NCBI RefSeq assembly: GCF_003334385.1
Contig: NZ_QOWN01000070.1
Strand: one strand, 5' to 3'
From: Escherichia coli
GTDB lineage: Bacteria; Pseudomonadota; Gammaproteobacteria; Enterobacterales; Enterobacteriaceae
DNA length: 9,240 bases
Shown: piece by piece, positions 1 through 5,063 of the stretch
Layout: each line of letters starts with the position of its first letter
Position numbering within the stretch: position 1 is the stretch's first letter
Translations under genes and position numbers: made by a program
The notes under the pieces: model-generated
Seen by the model: only the letters and a program-made list of their open reading frames with translations
What the model was told of the DNA's origin: nothing
Database searches by the model: none

Positions 1-34
1 AGGGGCTGAAGCCGCATTTCTGTATCACCATGAA

Positions 35-216
35 CATGGTGCCGGGTGCCTCCCGGTGAGTTCAGCCCGGTGCCACTAAACCCGCGTCATTCTCGTTTTG
101 ATAATCAGAGATTATACCGTCACCAGTCGCCCCTCCGCTCAGGGGGATTCACCATGCGAAATTTTTTTAACAAATGCCCAGTCTGACAGGCAACTGTCAA
201 CTTACTGAATTGTGAG
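35..216. repeat. Copy A of a ~180-bp imperfect direct repeat with hairpin-forming cores; candidate structured RNA or sRNA unit
   Basis: Three blocks recur about 483-484 bp downstream in the same order: 35-65 is identical to 519-549 (31/31), 129-157 matches 612-640 (28/29), and 205-216 is identical to 688-699. Block 1 contains the inverted repeat ccggg-tgcct-cccgg; block 2 contains cccct-ccgctc-agggg. Confidence 0.6.
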
Positions 217-280: not shown

Positions 281-471
281 TGGAAGGATAGCGGTCATGT
301 GATGCCGGTTTCCCGGTAACTCAGCACCGGTATCTGAGTCAACGTTTTCTCTACTGGGTCATTTCCGATACGCCCTGCCTGCTGACAGGCTTTCATCACA
401 TCTGAAAATATAGCACCCTGACTGATACTGTAGTACCCAAGGTTCCAGAAACTGTGATGTATCCGGCACAG

Positions 472-494
472 AAAAGCCCCTCCGGAGAGGGGCT
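472..494 (-). terminator. Intrinsic terminator, minus-strand orientation
   Basis: Perfect 8-bp inverted repeat agcccctc / gaggggct with loop cgga (475-494), preceded on plus by gaaaa; the minus-strand RNA is a hairpin followed by UUUUCUGUG. Confidence 0.55.
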
Positions 495-518
495 GGAGAG
501 TGGCGCTATGTGCCATTG

Positions 519-699
519 CATGGTGCCGGGTGCCTCCCGGTGAGTTCAGTATCAGCACCTGAACCCGCACAGAAAGGATAAGGGTCGGTGACAAAACACC
601 AGTTGCTGATTGCCCCTCCGCACAGGGGGATTCACCATGCCAGTTTCTTTTAACAAACTCCCCGCAAACCAGACAACAGTCAACCGCCTGAATTGTGAG
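519..699. repeat. Copy B of the ~180-bp structured repeat
   Basis: Same three conserved blocks as copy A (519-549, 612-640, 688-699) with diverged spacers. A second hairpin in both copies (gttcag...ctgaac in B, gttcag...ctaaac in A) varies between copies. Confidence 0.6.
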
Positions 700-744: not shown

Positions 745-821
745 TGGCGCGTTCTACTGTATTCGAACCAGTGACCGATTGCTTAGAAGGCAATTGCTCT
801 GTCCGGCTGAGCTAACAACGC
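745..821 (-). tRNA. tRNA-Arg (anticodon UCU), phage-type (argO-like position)
   Basis: Minus-strand read: GCGTTGT-TA-GCTC-AGCCGGACA-GAGC-A-ATTGC-CTTCTAA-GCAAT-CGGTC-ACTGG-TTCGAAT-ACAGT-AGAACGC-G-CCA. D and anticodon stems are perfect, the T-loop is TTCGAAT, and the 3' CCA is encoded. One mismatch each in the acceptor stem and T-stem. Confidence 0.7.
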
Positions 822-834
822 AGGATACAGATAA

Positions 835-911
835 TGAACCGCCTTCGGGGACCCGAACTCCGCGCAACCAGCTTCGAAGGCTGGCGCTCTTTCCTGATGA
901 GCTAATGGCGG
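835..911 (-). tRNA. tRNA-like gene, possibly tRNA-Arg (anticodon UCG) or a degenerate tRNA pseudogene (argN-like position)
   Basis: Minus-strand read: CCGCCAT-TA-GCTC-ATCAGGAAA-GAGC-G-CCAGC-CTTCGAA-GCTGG-TTGCG-CGGAG-TTCGGGT-CCCCG-AAGGCGG-T-TCA. D and anticodon arms are perfect, but the T-loop is non-canonical (TTCGGGT), acceptor and T stems each carry one mismatch, and the 3' end reads TCA rather than CCA. Confidence 0.4.
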
Positions 912-918
912 TATGTGA

Positions 919-994
919 TGGTGGCCCTTGCTGGATTTGAACCAGCGACCTGGCGATTATGAGTCGCTCACTCTCACCACTGAGCTAAAGGGCC
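919..994 (-). tRNA. tRNA with anticodon CAU (tRNA-Ile2 or tRNA-Met type; ileZ-like position)
   Basis: Minus-strand read: GGCCCTT-TA-GCTC-AGTGGTGA-GAGT-G-AGCGA-CTCATAA-TCGCC-AGGTC-GCTGG-TTCAAAT-CCAGC-AAGGGCC-A-CCA. Acceptor and T stems are perfect, the T-loop is canonical, CCA is encoded; 76 nt. Confidence 0.75.
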
Positions 995-1736: not shown

Positions 1737-1857
1737 TATAATTTTACTTTCATTAGCAATTGGTTAGCTCAATTATAGCCCCAAAAGGTAAATTATCATC
1801 AACACATAAGCAAAGGACTGACAGGTGTCGCCCCCCCACCAGCCGCCCATTCACCAC

Positions 1858-2192: not shown

Positions 2193-2217
2193 AAAAAACC
2201 CGCTCAGTGGCGGGTTT
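2193..2217 (-). terminator. Intrinsic terminator (minus-strand, possibly weakly bidirectional) in the divergent intergenic region
   Basis: A6 run 2193-2198, perfect 6-bp hairpin acccgc-tcagtg-gcgggt (2198-2215), then ttt. The minus-strand RNA is a hairpin followed by UUUUUUGU; on the plus strand only three U follow. Confidence 0.5.
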
Positions 2218-2281
2218 AAGTTGTGTGGCGAAGTAACCACTCTTAACACAATACAATACTTTTTGCGTACGCGTTAGTGTT

Positions 2282-2334: not shown

Positions 2335-3510
2335 ATGGATATAACTTGTTTAGAATGTGGCAATGTTCTTGACGACCCAACTGTAGCTTGCGATAAATGC
2401 GGTGCCACGCCTCATGTTGTAGTGCTGGGCAAACAATCGTACTTTCCTATTGGTGCTGTAACAGCAAATCTTGAAAAAAATGATTCAAGAGCATTTGATT
2501 ATCGATTAGGTGAAGTTTGGGATCTAAAAAATGAAGTCACATCTGAATTCATAACCAGAATTGAGAAAAAATTTAGCCGAAAAAACAAATTTCATAACTT
2601 CCTAGACTCAGATCACAACCCTTCATCCATTCCTACGATCCTAAAAAAATACATTAATAAAAATAATGAATTCATTGATTTATCTAGAGCTATAATAGAG
2701 AAGCTTAAACATAATGCTAATAACGAATCGAGAGTTGCCCAACTTCAGGGGGGGAGCGTTGTTTTCATCCACTATAAGTCTACCGAACCAGAGGATTTGG
2801 GGAAACTTCTAATCGTAATGGTTGATAAACAAAGCGCCTATGACTTTGATTCGGATAAGTTGACCCCAACAAGATTAAATCCAATTAATACCGATGCCTT
2901 ACGGCAGGCTGCGATGTTCGATTTAACTTTATTCGAAGCCAGTTATCCAGAAAACAAGGGTGACTCATATGTACATTTCTTGCAAGGTAAATCTAAAAGC
3001 GATTTTTTCAAAGACTCATTAGGTTGCCGACATGATTCGGACAATAAAAGAAGCATTCAGCAATTATTCAGTGCTATAGATATTTTTGCTAGTAAAAACT
3101 CACTCGGTCGTGTACTGCGTGATACTATTGACAATGAAGTTAAATCCTTACTGGAAAAAAAATCAAAAGATAAACACGGAAATAAGTCCGTTAAGATAGA
3201 GGATATTTCAAAAATAATTGACTCATGCCTGACTGATTCACACAAATGTAAGGGAACGTTTGTCGATTTTGTTAATCTTAATGGTTTCCAGATTGACCCT
3301 CAATTTGAACCAACTCCTAAAGCAGCTGAAAGCGCGCTTACAATTGAAGTGGCAGATAACGACAATAATTTTAAGTTGAAAATAATGCGTGGAGCTATTG
3401 GAGACGAAAAGTCAAATAAGCCTGTAATTCTCACTGACAACAAATGCGAAATTGTGATAAAATTGAGTCAGGCAAATTATGATGAACTCAAAAGATATAG
3501 AGACAGCTAA
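2335..3510 (+). CDS. Cassette gene 1: N-terminal zinc-ribbon fused to an NdpA/YejK-like (NA37 family) nucleoid-associated-protein-like domain
   Basis: ORF track, 391 aa. The DNA is AT-rich (about 30% GC on a sampled 60-nt line, versus about 58% on a sampled line in the helicase gene). CxxC-x10-CxxC at C5, C8, C19, C22. The motifs GGSVVFIHY ... LLIVMVD ... AAMFDLTLF ... YVHFLQGKSKSDFFKDSLG match the order and spacing I recall for E. coli YejK (GG-V-LF-HY ... LLVAVL ... ARIDLTEW ... [22 protein letters not shown]). From memory, not verified. Confidence 0.8.
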   Translation: MDITCLECGNVLDDPTVACDKCGATPHVVVLGKQSYFPIGAVTANLEKNDSRAFDYRLGEVWDLKNEVTSEFITRIEKKFSRKNKFHNFLDSDHNPSSIPTILKKYINKNNEFIDLSRAIIEKLKHNANNESRVAQLQGGSVVFIHYKSTEPEDLGKLLIVMVDKQSAYDFDSDKLTPTRLNPINTDALRQAAMFDLTLFEASYPENKGDSYVHFLQGKSKSDFFKDSLGCRHDSDNKRSIQQLFSAIDIFASKNSLGRVLRDTIDNEVKSLLEKKSKDKHGNKSVKIEDISKIIDSCLTDSHKCKGTFVDFVNLNGFQIDPQFEPTPKAAESALTIEVADNDNNFKLKIMRGAIGDEKSNKPVILTDNKCEIVIKLSQANYDELKRYRDS

Positions 3511-3512
3511 TA

Positions 3513-4727
3513 ATGACAATTGCTGATGACTTATCAAGATTAGCGCAGATTATTAACGGAGCCTCAAGCAGAGTTGAGGGCTACTACACTGTCATAAGTC
3601 TTGAAGAAAGCATTGTTATTGTAAATAGTTCTGAAATAATTAGACTGTTACAATCTATAGGTTATAAAAAGGCAACAACCTGCATCGAAAATAATGAAAT
3701 TTGGCTAGATCGCCAAGCTTCATCTTGGGATGACGCTATAATTTATGAGAATGTTGAGTCTTTTTGGTCTAGAGTAAACACCCAAAACGCTCTTCCGAAA
3801 AATTATATCATCGGAACGCCGTTAATACTCCCTACTTCTAAGAATGAAAGCATCGAAAAAATCCATATTTTCTTTATGTGGAAAGATATCCTTTCATTAA
3901 TTGCTGATCATCATAACAGTGACTGCTCTGTCTTATTTTTCACCAATGAAGACAAAAGTTATACAGTCGAACTCACGCATTTTTTACAATATAGCGAGAT
4001 TAATCGCTTATCGAACTCGTCTCTTAAATATGAAATTATAAAGGAGCTTCTCGACACAATAAAAATCAATGATTTACACAAAAGCGAGCGCAAGCTCGTT
4101 ATACGCTCAGCCATAAACGAAGTATTTAAAGCAAATGGTACGTTCAATTTCTTTGACTTGCTTAACTCTACTGAACTCGTCAGGAAAAAATATGATGAAC
4201 TATATGAGATTTACACAAAGAGGTTTTCTGTAAATAAAATTCTTAACGAACTCGATGAGAAAAATCTTGAGTTCACGAGTAAAATTAACGAATTCATATC
4301 ATCTAATCAGACAAAAGCATTGACTATTCCCGGTGCATTAATAGCTGCTGGTGGCTTAGTGAAGGCTAATGAAACAACCGAAGCAATATTGATTATCGCA
4401 GGACTTTGGATGATAAAAAAAGTCAATTACATTTCTATTGAGATATTCAATGAAACATTCGACAACTTACGTTCTCGAGTGGAGTCCGCTTTCGATAAGT
4501 ATTTAAAGTTTGAAGAAAATAAAGAAATCAAAGATAATGCAGATAGTATTAAGAGTAGCATTACAGGTTTGATTGATAAAGCTAAAAAAAGGATGAGAAC
4601 TGTTAAATATCTCGCATCAGCCATGTTTTATGGAGGCCTTATTTACGTTGGATATAAACAGTTCCCAGTCTTTTTTGAAAAATCGGCAGTAAATCTATTT
4701 TATTTTTTATGCCATACTATAAGCTAA
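3513..4727 (+). CDS. Cassette gene 2: predicted membrane-associated protein of unknown function (candidate effector)
   Basis: ORF track, 404 aa. The ATG lies 2 nt after the gene 1 stop, indicating an operon. AT-rich. Hydrophobic segments ALTIPGALIAAGGLV and AILIIAGLWMI (about nt 4318-4420) and the C-terminal YLASAMFYGGLIYVGY (about nt 4608-4680). No catalytic motif recognised. Confidence 0.8.
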   Translation: MTIADDLSRLAQIINGASSRVEGYYTVISLEESIVIVNSSEIIRLLQSIGYKKATTCIENNEIWLDRQASSWDDAIIYENVESFWSRVNTQNALPKNYIIGTPLILPTSKNESIEKIHIFFMWKDILSLIADHHNSDCSVLFFTNEDKSYTVELTHFLQYSEINRLSNSSLKYEIIKELLDTIKINDLHKSERKLVIRSAINEVFKANGTFNFFDLLNSTELVRKKYDELYEIYTKRFSVNKILNELDEKNLEFTSKINEFISSNQTKALTIPGALIAAGGLVKANETTEAILIIAGLWMIKKVNYISIEIFNETFDNLRSRVESAFDKYLKFEENKEIKDNADSIKSSITGLIDKAKKRMRTVKYLASAMFYGGLIYVGYKQFPVFFEKSAVNLFYFLCHTIS

Positions 4728-5063
4728 CATTGCTAAACAGCCGTCAACAAACCCCATTGCAGTTTGCAGTTCCTTCCTAATTGTGCCATCAGAGCATTTT
4801 CTCTTCTTCGCAATAGTACGTAATGAGATACCGATAACAAAGTGGGCGATGATGAGCTCATATTCCTCTGGTTTATACCTTCTCAACCGAGCCACACAAC
4901 TGTCTATCATGATGCCTTCGTCATCATCACACTGAATCCGTGACTTTTTGCCATGAGGTAAAAGTCCCTTGAAACCAGCCGCTATCGGCTGCCAGTCCAC
5001 TCCGCTATTGTCTGAAGCAGCCCAAGCTCCCCAACGATCCATTACTTCATACATATCACGCAT
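4707..5063 (-). CDS. Phage antitermination protein Q (QuuD-like small Q family)
   Basis: The ORF track calls 4707..5078 from a TTG. I prefer the in-frame ATG at 5061-5063, which has GGAGA 6 nt upstream and gives MRDMYEVMDRWGAWAA..., matching the M-R-D...ERWGAWAA start I recall for DLP12 QuuD-type Q proteins. The 3' end overlaps cassette gene 2 convergently by 21 bp. Confidence 0.75.
   Translation of the reverse strand: MRDMYEVMDRWGAWAASDNSGVDWQPIAAGFKGLLPHGKKSRIQCDDDEGIMIDSCVARLRRYKPEEYELIIAHFVIGISLRTIAKKRKCSDGTIRKELQTAMGFVDGCLAMLAYSMA

What the first reader, a model, noticed from the sequence alone, without database searches (positions are those of the whole stretch)
2748..2754. G7 homopolymer inside the AT-rich cassette gene 1
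A run of seven G encodes the conserved Gly-Gly of the GGSVVF motif. It stands out against the AT-rich background and is a potential slipped-strand frameshift site that could switch the cassette on and off. An A8 run at 3155-3162 is less remarkable given the composition. Seven is at the low end of lengths that slip appreciably.
Basis: seen in the sequence. Interest (0 to 1): 0.3.

Follow-up and report, generated by a model that had tools for sequence, protein, structure and literature searches.

The report
G7 frameshift hotspot in DS-1 gene
A run of seven G's inside a recently described prophage anti-phage gene does occasionally gain or lose a base in natural E. coli, but only in about 1% of copies and no more often than other short runs nearby, so it looks like an ordinary mutational weak spot and not a dedicated on/off switch.

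Summary
The G7 run at 2748-2754 is real. It is read CAG GGG GGG AGC (Q138 G139 G140 S141) in a 391-aa gene, and it is unusual for this AT-rich cassette (P about 0.005 under synonymous resampling).

The cassette (2335-4727) is exactly DS-1, a two-gene anti-phage system validated in the DefensePredictor paper (Science 2026). It has a YejK/NA37-like protein and a 404-aa partner, and it sits next to the Q antiterminator of a lambdoid E. coli prophage.

Tract length does vary in public assemblies. G8 and G6 alleles each occur on at least five SNP backgrounds of the cassette. All variant lengths truncate the protein at 146-158 aa. They are rare: 2 of 107 complete-genome records, and about 1% of index entries.

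G5 alleles mostly come with other homopolymer deletions on megabase contigs, so they are probably long-read artefacts.

The G7 run behaves like the A7 runs of the same cassette.

The tract is interrupted in the 96% (GGA GGG), 90% (GGT GGC) and more distant homologues.

Verdict: an incidental homopolymer that acts as a minor loss-of-function hotspot. A programmed phase switch is not supported.

The parts
2748..2754 (+). G7 homopolymer. It covers the third base of CAG (Q138) plus GGG GGG (G139 G140) of gene 1. It is a minor frameshift hotspot.
   Evidence: Sequence. Natural G6 and G8 alleles occur on several haplotypes. G5 alleles are probably long-read artefacts.
2335..3510 (+). DS-1 gene 1: a 391-aa YejK/NA37-like 'nucleoid-associated anti-phage protein' with an N-terminal CxxC...CxxC zinc-ribbon-like stretch. 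Identical to WP_000355468.1.
   Evidence: NCBIfam NF053868 DS1_1_antiphage, 451 bits against a cutoff of 330. Pfam PF04245, 1.5e-23. PHROG 3767. PDB 9be2 YejK, 1.2e-9. RefSeq annotation of loci identical in this gene. Paper supplement.
3513..4727 (+). DS-1 gene 2: a 404-aa partner protein with no Pfam domain. Identical to WP_000150292.1. Its start lies 2 nt after the gene 1 stop.
   Evidence: NCBIfam NF053869 DS1_2_antiphage, 375 bits against a cutoff of 315. PHROG 5023. Annotation. Paper supplement. Junction AGC TAA TA ATG.
3155..3162 (+). A8 homopolymer (E274 K275 K276). This is the main frameshift hotspot of gene 1. A7 gives a 287-aa product and A9 a 279-aa product.
   Evidence: A7 in 4 and A9 in 4 of 107 complete-genome records. 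373 and 97 contigs respectively. 744 and 246 index blocks. Each is on at least 4 haplotypes.
2474..2480 (+). A7 run in gene 1, used as a calibrator for a 7-nt run.
   Evidence: The exact -1 frameshift product is on 58 contigs and the +1 product on 6.
2643..2649 (+). A7 run in gene 1, calibrator.
   Evidence: The -1 product is on 14 contigs. The +1 product is absent.
4415..4421 (+). A7 run in gene 2, calibrator.
   Evidence: The -1 product is on 53 contigs. The +1 product is absent. The -1 change co-occurs with G5 in suspect long-read assemblies.
4584..4590 (+). A7 run in gene 2, calibrator.
   Evidence: The -1 product is on 8 contigs. The +1 product is absent.

Best explanation
The G7 run is an incidental result of codon choice. 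Two GGG codons, preceded by CAG, encode the Gly-Gly that opens the GGxxxFxHY stretch shared with YejK, in gene 1 of the known two-gene prophage defence system DS-1.

Like any 7-nt homopolymer in E. coli, it is a replication-slippage hotspot. Rare +1 and -1 slips give G8 or G6, shift the frame and end the protein after 147 or 158 residues. That removes most of the NA37 domain.

Inferred, not shown: these slips inactivate DS-1, possibly with polar loss of gene 2, whose start lies 2 nt after the gene 1 stop.

The resulting alleles arise recurrently but stay at about 1% of copies. The tract is therefore one of several ordinary routes by which this defence cassette is lost, and the A8 run at 3155-3162 is the dominant one. 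It does not look like an evolved on/off device.
For: - **Identity of the cassette with DS-1:**
- **Frame consequences of G5/G6/G8:**
- **Recurrent natural variants:** G8 on at least 5 cassette SNP haplotypes and G6 on at least 6, mostly with no other indel. One further G6 is in an IMG/VR prophage (L037).
- **Low frequency:** 105 of 107 complete-genome records are G7. Index blocks are 10,333 for the intact protein against 50 (G8), 42 (G6) and 46 (G5).
- **Same order as other 7-nt runs in the cassette:** the -1 products of the A7 runs are on 58, 14, 53 and 8 contigs, against 28 for G6 and 27 for G8. The A8 run is about tenfold higher, at 373 and 97 contigs.
- **One G6 allele arose in a gene that was already broken:** UTAK-10 also carries the +T after 3325 that it shares with WL1467.
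- **Tract not conserved:** GGA GGG at 96% identity, GGT GGC at 90%, GGC GGA / GGT GGG / GGT GGA at 54-56%, and no Gly-Gly at 46-47%.
- **Literature:** indel rates in E. coli rise exponentially with run length, and 7-8 bp G.C runs are hotspots in mismatch-repair-defective lines (PMC8510543).
Against: - The tract is statistically unlikely given the cassette's codon usage (P = 0.0045). It is retained in the 92%-identity clade despite about 12% nucleotide divergence. Weak selection to keep it is therefore not excluded.
- Insertions (+1) are relatively more common at G7 (27 contigs) than at the A7 runs (0-6 contigs).
- Assembly surveys cannot see within-population mixtures or reversion, which is where a true switch would show.
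- Whether a truncated gene 1 abolishes defence was not tested here. I did not find that test in the paper text or supplements I read.
Confidence: 0.8

Rival explanations
1. Programmed phase variation (a contingency locus). On this reading the G7 tract is maintained by selection so that slipped-strand mispairing reversibly switches DS-1 off and on in the population. That would balance the cost of defence against phage pressure, as the G tract in pglX does for the Pgl system of Streptomyces coelicolor.
For: - The tract is in frame in a defence gene, and every length change is an OFF allele.
- G6 and G8 occur on many haplotypes.
- The tract is improbable from codon usage (P = 0.0045).
- It is kept in the 92% clade.
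- There is a precedent in pglX, which switches at 1e-2 to 1e-4 (PMC4365076).
Against: - OFF alleles at the tract make up only about 1% of copies.
- Its variability matches the ordinary A7 runs and is about tenfold below the A8 run.
- The tract is interrupted in the 96% and 90% clades and in all more distant homologues.
- One G6 allele sits in a gene that was already broken.
- From my own knowledge: seven is shorter than the poly-G/C tracts of established contingency loci, which are usually 8 or more, and E. coli is normally mismatch-repair proficient.
Confidence: 0.1
2. All apparent length variation is a sequencing or assembly artefact, and the tract is stably G7 in every real genome.
For: - G5 alleles lie mostly on megabase contigs. 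In 6 of 10 loci read they are accompanied by other homopolymer deletions (A8 to A7 or A6, the A7 runs, an A6 run). One more of the ten (L089) has a scrambled stretch in gene 2.
- The G5 complete genome also has a 'frameshifted' rzpD nearby.
- Several G6 loci are also on chromosome-scale contigs.
Against: - G8 alleles, an expansion, are mostly on short-read-sized contigs, metagenome scaffolds and Logan assemblies. They carry no other indel in 2.5 kb and are on at least 5 haplotypes.
- G6 also occurs on 10-27 kb contigs (L077, L081, L082).
- The same truncated proteins carry many independent accessions.
Confidence: 0.06
3. Recoding signal. G_GGG_GGG is in the canonical X_XXY_YYZ phase, so ribosomes (-1 frameshift) or RNA polymerase (slippage) could deliberately make a short 147-aa N-terminal isoform alongside the full protein.
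For: The heptamer is in the right phase relative to the zero frame. The -1 frame closes after 8 codons, giving the same 147-aa product as G8.
Against: - There is no stable structure downstream (80 nt, z = -0.77, 43 of 200 shuffles fold as well).
- The heptamer is destroyed in the 96% and 90% clades and in all distant homologues.
- From my own knowledge: efficient bacterial slippery sites usually end in A AAG or similar, and transcriptional slippage needs longer A/T runs.
Confidence: 0.03

Closest known systems
DS-1 anti-phage system (working id D390) of the DefensePredictor study (Science 2026, PMC13092281). NCBIfam NF053868 / NF053869.
   Same: Both proteins are the very accessions cloned and listed as a replicated defence system (WP_000355468.1 and WP_000150292.1). 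The gene order is the same, and both NCBIfam equivalog cutoffs are passed.
   Different: Nothing differs at the protein level. The paper text and supplements I read do not mention the homopolymer tracts or natural frameshift alleles.
YejK / NdpA nucleoid-associated protein family (Pfam NA37, PF04245; PDB 9be2)
   Same: Residues 64-376 match NA37. GGSVVFIHY aligns with GGFVLFCHY of E. coli YejK.
   Different: The relation is distant: 81 bits against the YejK equivalog cutoff of 341. Gene 1 has an extra N-terminal CxxC...CxxC stretch. It is prophage-borne, AT-rich and paired with a second gene.
Homopolymer indel hotspots in E. coli (mutation-accumulation studies from the Foster laboratory)
   Same: A 7-bp G.C run with recurrent +/-1 changes. 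The frequency scales with run length, with A8 far above the 7-nt runs.
   Different: Here the evidence is a survey of natural assemblies, not measured rates.
Simple-sequence contingency loci in defence genes, for example the G tract in pglX of the Streptomyces coelicolor Pgl system, and phase-variable mod genes of type III restriction-modification systems
   Same: A mononucleotide tract inside the coding frame of a phage-defence gene, where length changes abolish the product.
   Different: OFF alleles are at about 1%, not a substantial fraction of copies. The tract is not conserved among orthologues. It is no more variable than neighbouring A7 runs. Reversibility is unknown.

Membership tests
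DS-1 anti-phage system | Gene 1 matches NF053868 (DS1_1_antiphage) above the curated cutoff. | tested here: met
   451.4 bits against a cutoff of 330, residues 10-377.
DS-1 anti-phage system | Gene 2 matches NF053869 (DS1_2_antiphage) above the curated cutoff and lies directly downstream on the same strand. | tested here: met
   375.2 bits against a cutoff of 315. The start lies 2 nt after the gene 1 stop.
DS-1 anti-phage system | The proteins are identical to those tested experimentally (WP_000355468.1 and WP_000150292.1). | tested here: met
   RefSeq loci with no difference in the respective gene carry these accessions. The supplement lists them as D390 = DS-1, replicated TRUE.
DS-1 anti-phage system | Protects against phage when expressed. 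| not testable with these tools
   Taken from PMC13092281. Not re-tested here.
NA37 / YejK family | Significant match to Pfam PF04245 over most of the domain. | tested here: met
   E = 1.5e-23, model positions 27-318 of 325. PDB 9be2 YejK E = 1.2e-9.
NA37 / YejK family | Orthologue of chromosomal YejK (NCBIfam NF001557 equivalog cutoff). | tested here: not met
   81.4 bits against a cutoff of 341. It is a distant paralogue, not YejK itself.
Simple-sequence contingency (phase-variable) locus | The repeat tract is placed so that length changes toggle expression. | tested here: met
   G5, G6, G8 and G9 all give stops at 146-159 aa. Only G7 is in frame.
Simple-sequence contingency (phase-variable) locus | Tract length varies among closely related isolates, with OFF lengths a substantial fraction. 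| tested here: not met
   Variation exists but is about 1%. There are 2 variants among 107 complete-genome records. Index blocks total 138 for the three variant products against 10,333 for the intact protein.
Simple-sequence contingency (phase-variable) locus | The tract is more mutable than comparable sequence in the same gene. | tested here: not met
   G6 is on 28 and G8 on 27 contigs. The -1 products of the A7 runs are on 8-58 contigs, and the A8 variants on 373 and 97.
Simple-sequence contingency (phase-variable) locus | The tract is conserved or over-represented among orthologues. | tested here: inconclusive
   It is improbable from codon usage (P = 0.0045) and kept in the 92% clade. It is interrupted at 96%, at 90% and at 56% or less.
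Simple-sequence contingency (phase-variable) locus | Reversible high-frequency switching within a clone. | not testable with these tools
   Needs deep sequencing or fluctuation assays.
Programmed -1 ribosomal frameshift site | Slippery heptamer X_XXY_YYZ in phase. | tested here: met
   G_GGG_GGG, with GGG GGG as zero-frame codons.
Programmed -1 ribosomal frameshift site | A downstream stimulatory structure, and conservation of the site. | tested here: not met
   The downstream 80 nt fold with z = -0.77. The heptamer is lost in most homologues.

The most novel reading that the evidence does not exclude
The G7 and A8 runs together act as low-rate contingency tracts. They would let lysogen populations reversibly shed and regain DS-1 defence, which would be a first example of homopolymer-driven phase variation of a prophage-encoded defence system in E. 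coli. On this reading the G7 tract would be weakly selected for, since it is improbable from codon usage and retained in the 92% clade.
Probability: 0.08. Interest if true: 0.45.

Novelty: already known. Interest (0 to 1): 0.15.

Why it matters
**If the switch idea were true,** it would show that E. coli prophages tune the cost and benefit of a defence system by slipped-strand phase variation. Reversible loss of DS-1 could then be tested directly.

**As the evidence stands,** the value is practical.
- The window carries the recently validated DS-1 system in its intact (ON) form.
- About one in ten natural copies is broken, mostly at the A8 run and more rarely at G7. Surveys of defence repertoires should check these two tracts before scoring DS-1 as present.
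- G5 calls at this site flag long-read homopolymer errors in public 'complete' genomes.

Tried and rejected
- **PADLOC-DB 2023:** no hit for either protein. The database predates DS-1, so this says nothing.
- **INPHARED phage genomes:** no megablast match to the cassette, so no deposited phage record could be compared.
- **-1 frameshift or transcriptional slippage signal:** rejected. There is no downstream structure and the site is not conserved.
- **G5 alleles as evidence of slippage:** largely rejected as long-read artefacts, because other homopolymers are shortened in the same loci.
- **Selection on the tract from its retention in the 92% clade:** only three synonymous sites are involved, so retention has no statistical power either way.
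- **Phage specificity of DS-1:** I looked for it in the paper's supplements, but the passages returned did not show the D390 rows clearly. No claim is made.
- **Promoter and terminator scan around the cassette:** only consensus-level matches, not used.

Full report
**Observation.** Positions 2748-2754 are seven G's on the + strand. The ORF 2335..3510 reads them as CAG GGG GGG AGC GTT GTT TTC, that is Q138 G139 G140 S141 V V F.

This is the only G run of 7 or more in the window. The other G/C run of 7 is C7 at 1831-1837. The cassette 2335-4727 has about 34% G+C against about 52% in the flanks, and G is 17.9% of its bases.

An i.i.d. model expects 0.012 G runs of 7 or more in the cassette. Only 3 of the 30 Gly codons in the two genes are GGG, and two of them make this tract. 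Synonymous resampling with the cassette's own codon usage gives such a run in gene 1 in 0.45% of trials. So the tract does stand out locally. Over the whole window it is unremarkable (34 of 200 shuffles reach the observed count). The A8 run at 3155-3162 is real and is expected from composition (P = 0.65).

**What the cassette is.** Gene 1 (391 aa) passes the NCBIfam equivalog NF053868 'DS1_1_antiphage' at 451 bits against a cutoff of 330. Gene 2 (404 aa) passes NF053869 'DS1_2_antiphage' at 375 bits against 315. Gene 1 also matches:
- Pfam NA37 / PF04245, E = 1.5e-23;
- PHROG 3767;
- the solved YejK structure 9be2, E = 1.2e-9, with GGSVVFIHY aligned to GGFVLFCHY.

RefSeq loci that are identical in these genes carry WP_000355468.1 and WP_000150292.1. 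The supplement of the DefensePredictor paper (PMC13092281) lists exactly these two accessions as transcription unit D390 = DS-1. It was cloned as pCV1-D390 in MG1655 and is marked as replicated. The main text names 'a YejK nucleoid-associated domain' among the domains newly validated in defence. The 'AT-rich cassette' is therefore a known anti-phage system, present here in its intact form.

The cassette lies in a lambdoid prophage. Gene 2 converges on, and overlaps by 21 nt, the antiterminator Q gene (4707-5063, minus strand). Upstream on the minus strand are:
- a 65-aa ORF;
- an AraC-type HTH gene;
- three tRNA genes;
- two STnc100 sRNA copies.

The cassette occurs in 106 of 5,426 complete E. 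coli genomes, always at 99% identity or more. It is absent from the INPHARED phage records.

**Does the tract vary?** Among 107 complete-genome records, 104 are identical over the 71 nt around the tract. One more has an unrelated synonymous change, one is G6 (UTAK-10) and one is G5 (UID2309220009). UTAK-10 also carries a +T after 3325 that it shares with WL1467, so the gene carries a second, lineage-shared frameshift.

In IMG/VR prophages, one of about 28 near-identical copies is G6 (L037) and one has an extra G just after the tract (L036).

I also looked up the exact frameshift products in a collection of about 15 billion proteins.

| Allele | Product length | Contigs |
|---|---|---|
| Intact (G7, A8) | 391 aa | 1,000 or more (capped) |
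| G8 | 147 aa | 27 |
| G6 | 158 aa | 28 |
| G5 | 146 aa | 34 |
| A7 | 287 aa | 373 |
| A9 | 279 aa | 97 |

The contig index counts, on one common scale, are 10,333 blocks for the intact protein, 50 (G8), 42 (G6), 46 (G5), 744 (A7) and 246 (A9). G-tract variants are therefore about 1.2% of copies and A8-tract variants about 8.6%.

**Are the variants real and independent?** I aligned ten loci per allele to the window.
- G8 sits on at least five SNP haplotypes of the cassette. It is mostly in short-read-sized contigs or metagenome scaffolds, with no other indel in 2.5 kb.
- G6 sits on at least six haplotypes, some of them in 10-27 kb contigs.
- These two look like real, recurrent slips.
- G5 is different. 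Of ten loci, eight are on contigs of 0.7-5.4 Mb. Six also have shortened A8, A7 or A6 runs, and one more (L089) has a scrambled stretch in gene 2.
- That is the signature of long-read homopolymer compression. The G5 'complete genome' also has a frameshifted rzpD nearby.
- A7 is on at least four haplotypes and A9 on at least six.

**Is G7 special among runs?** I used the same exact-product look-up for the four A7 runs of the cassette.

| Run | -1 product (contigs) | +1 product (contigs) |
|---|---|---|
| A7 at 2474 | 58 | 6 |
| A7 at 2643 | 14 | 0 |
| A7 at 4415 | 53 | 0 |
| A7 at 4584 | 8 | 0 |
| G7 at 2748 | 28 | 27 |
| A8 at 3155 | 373 | 97 |

G7 therefore behaves like an ordinary 7-nt run, with somewhat more insertions. 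This fits the published rule that indel rates in E. coli rise exponentially with run length, and that 7-8 bp G.C runs are hotspots (PMC8510543).

**Is the tract conserved?** Codons at the motif in 53 related viral loci:

| Identity to the window protein | Codons at the motif |
|---|---|
| 97.7% or more | CAG GGG GGG AGC |
| 96% (Salmonella type) | CAG GGA GGG |
| 92% (Raoultella type) | CAG GGG GGG TGT (tract kept) |
| 90% | CAA GGT GGC |
| 54-56% | GGC GGA, GGT GGG or GGT GGA |
| 46-47% | no Gly-Gly at all |
| 32-43% | GGA GGA, GGA GGG, GGC GGT and similar; two loci have no Gly-Gly |

The protein alignment shows Gly-Gly in about 25 of 31 relatives, not invariant. There is thus no sign that selection maintains a slippery tract. 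Retention in one clade involves only three synonymous sites and proves nothing either way.

**Mechanism.**
- Shown: G6 and G9 stop after 158 and 159 aa. G5 and G8 stop after 146 and 147 aa. All of them remove most of the NA37 domain.
- Inferred: these alleles inactivate DS-1. Because gene 2 starts 2 nt after the gene 1 stop, a premature stop about 700 nt upstream may also lower gene 2 expression through lost coupling or polarity.
- Best reading (about 0.8): an incidental homopolymer that serves as a minor loss-of-function hotspot in a defence gene that is often lost. Counting the A8 alleles, a shared +T, an IS5 insertion (H38) and gene 2 indels in one plasmid copy, roughly 10% of complete-genome copies are broken.

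**Rivals.**
- A true contingency switch, as for the pglX G tract that switches at 1e-2 to 1e-4 (PMC4365076), is not excluded. It is disfavoured by the rarity of variants, the lack of excess mutability and the lack of conservation (about 0.1).
- 'All variation is artefact' fits G5 but not G8 or G6 (about 0.06).
- A recoding signal is formally possible, since G_GGG_GGG is in X_XXY_YYZ phase. It has no downstream structure (z = -0.77) and no conservation (about 0.03).

**Verdict.** The cassette is the already published DS-1. The tract is an ordinary hotspot, so interest is low. The most useful by-products are two:
- the A8 run is the main natural inactivation site of DS-1;
- G5 calls at this site flag long-read assembly errors.

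Noticed in passing
A7 and A9 alleles are on 373 and 97 contigs, each on at least 4 haplotypes, and in 8 of 107 complete-genome records.
   Followed up: yes
loci L083-L092 (G5 alleles), for example L084, L086, L087, L088, L091: Public chromosome-scale E. coli assemblies with G5 at this site usually also have A8, A7 or A6 runs shortened in the same 2.5 kb. This looks like systematic long-read homopolymer compression, and it splits both DS-1 genes in the annotation.
   Followed up: partly
window 1-186 and 464-669, minus strand: Two tandem copies of the sRNA family STnc100 (RF02076, 134 and 141 bits) about 483 nt apart. They were also seen as direct repeats D1 and D2. The first copy is cut by the window end.
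   Followed up: no
window 745-994, minus strand: Three tRNA genes in a row: Arg-tct, Arg-tcg, and a CAT-anticodon tRNA that ARAGORN calls Met and RefSeq calls Ile. The cluster lies on the minus strand beyond Q and the cassette.
   Followed up: no
window 4707-4727: The 3' end of DS-1 gene 2 (+ strand) and the 3' end of the antiterminator Q gene (minus strand) overlap by 21 nt. The 2.4-kb cassette therefore sits antisense between Q and the genes to its left on the minus strand: a holin in most other prophages, and a 65-aa ORF with an AraC-type HTH gene here. Where the Q-dependent late promoter lies relative to the cassette was not worked out.
   Followed up: no
window 2193-2221: A GC-rich hairpin, AAAAAACCCGC-TCAGT-GGCGGGTTT, flanked by A and T runs upstream of the cassette. 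It looks like a terminator that could work in either direction. The simple terminator scan did not list it.
   Followed up: no
window 3325/3326; loci L003 (WL1467) and L008 (UTAK-10): A non-homopolymer +T insertion in gene 1 is shared by two US meat isolates. UTAK-10 has in addition lost one G from the G7 tract, so this copy has accumulated two frameshifts.
   Followed up: partly
window 2347-2400 (gene 1 residues 5-22): Gene 1 starts with CxxC...CxxC (C5, C8, C19, C22), a zinc-ribbon-like stretch with only weak Pfam hits. It is absent from chromosomal YejK and from the Pseudomonas-type homologues in the alignment.
   Followed up: no
H38, NZ_CP182203.1 (strain JB2), and L006 (MS 69-1 plasmid unnamed3): Other ways the cassette is broken in nature. 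One is an IS5-like ISKpn26 insertion. The other is a second copy on a 64-kb plasmid-like replicon, where gene 2 has A6 to A5 at 3856 and T6 to T5 at 4703 while the chromosomal copy matches the window over both tract regions checked.
   Followed up: no
window 1831-1837: C7 on the + strand (G7 on the minus strand), in the gap between the AraC-type HTH gene and the 65-aa ORF. This is the only other G/C run of 7 in the window.
   Followed up: no
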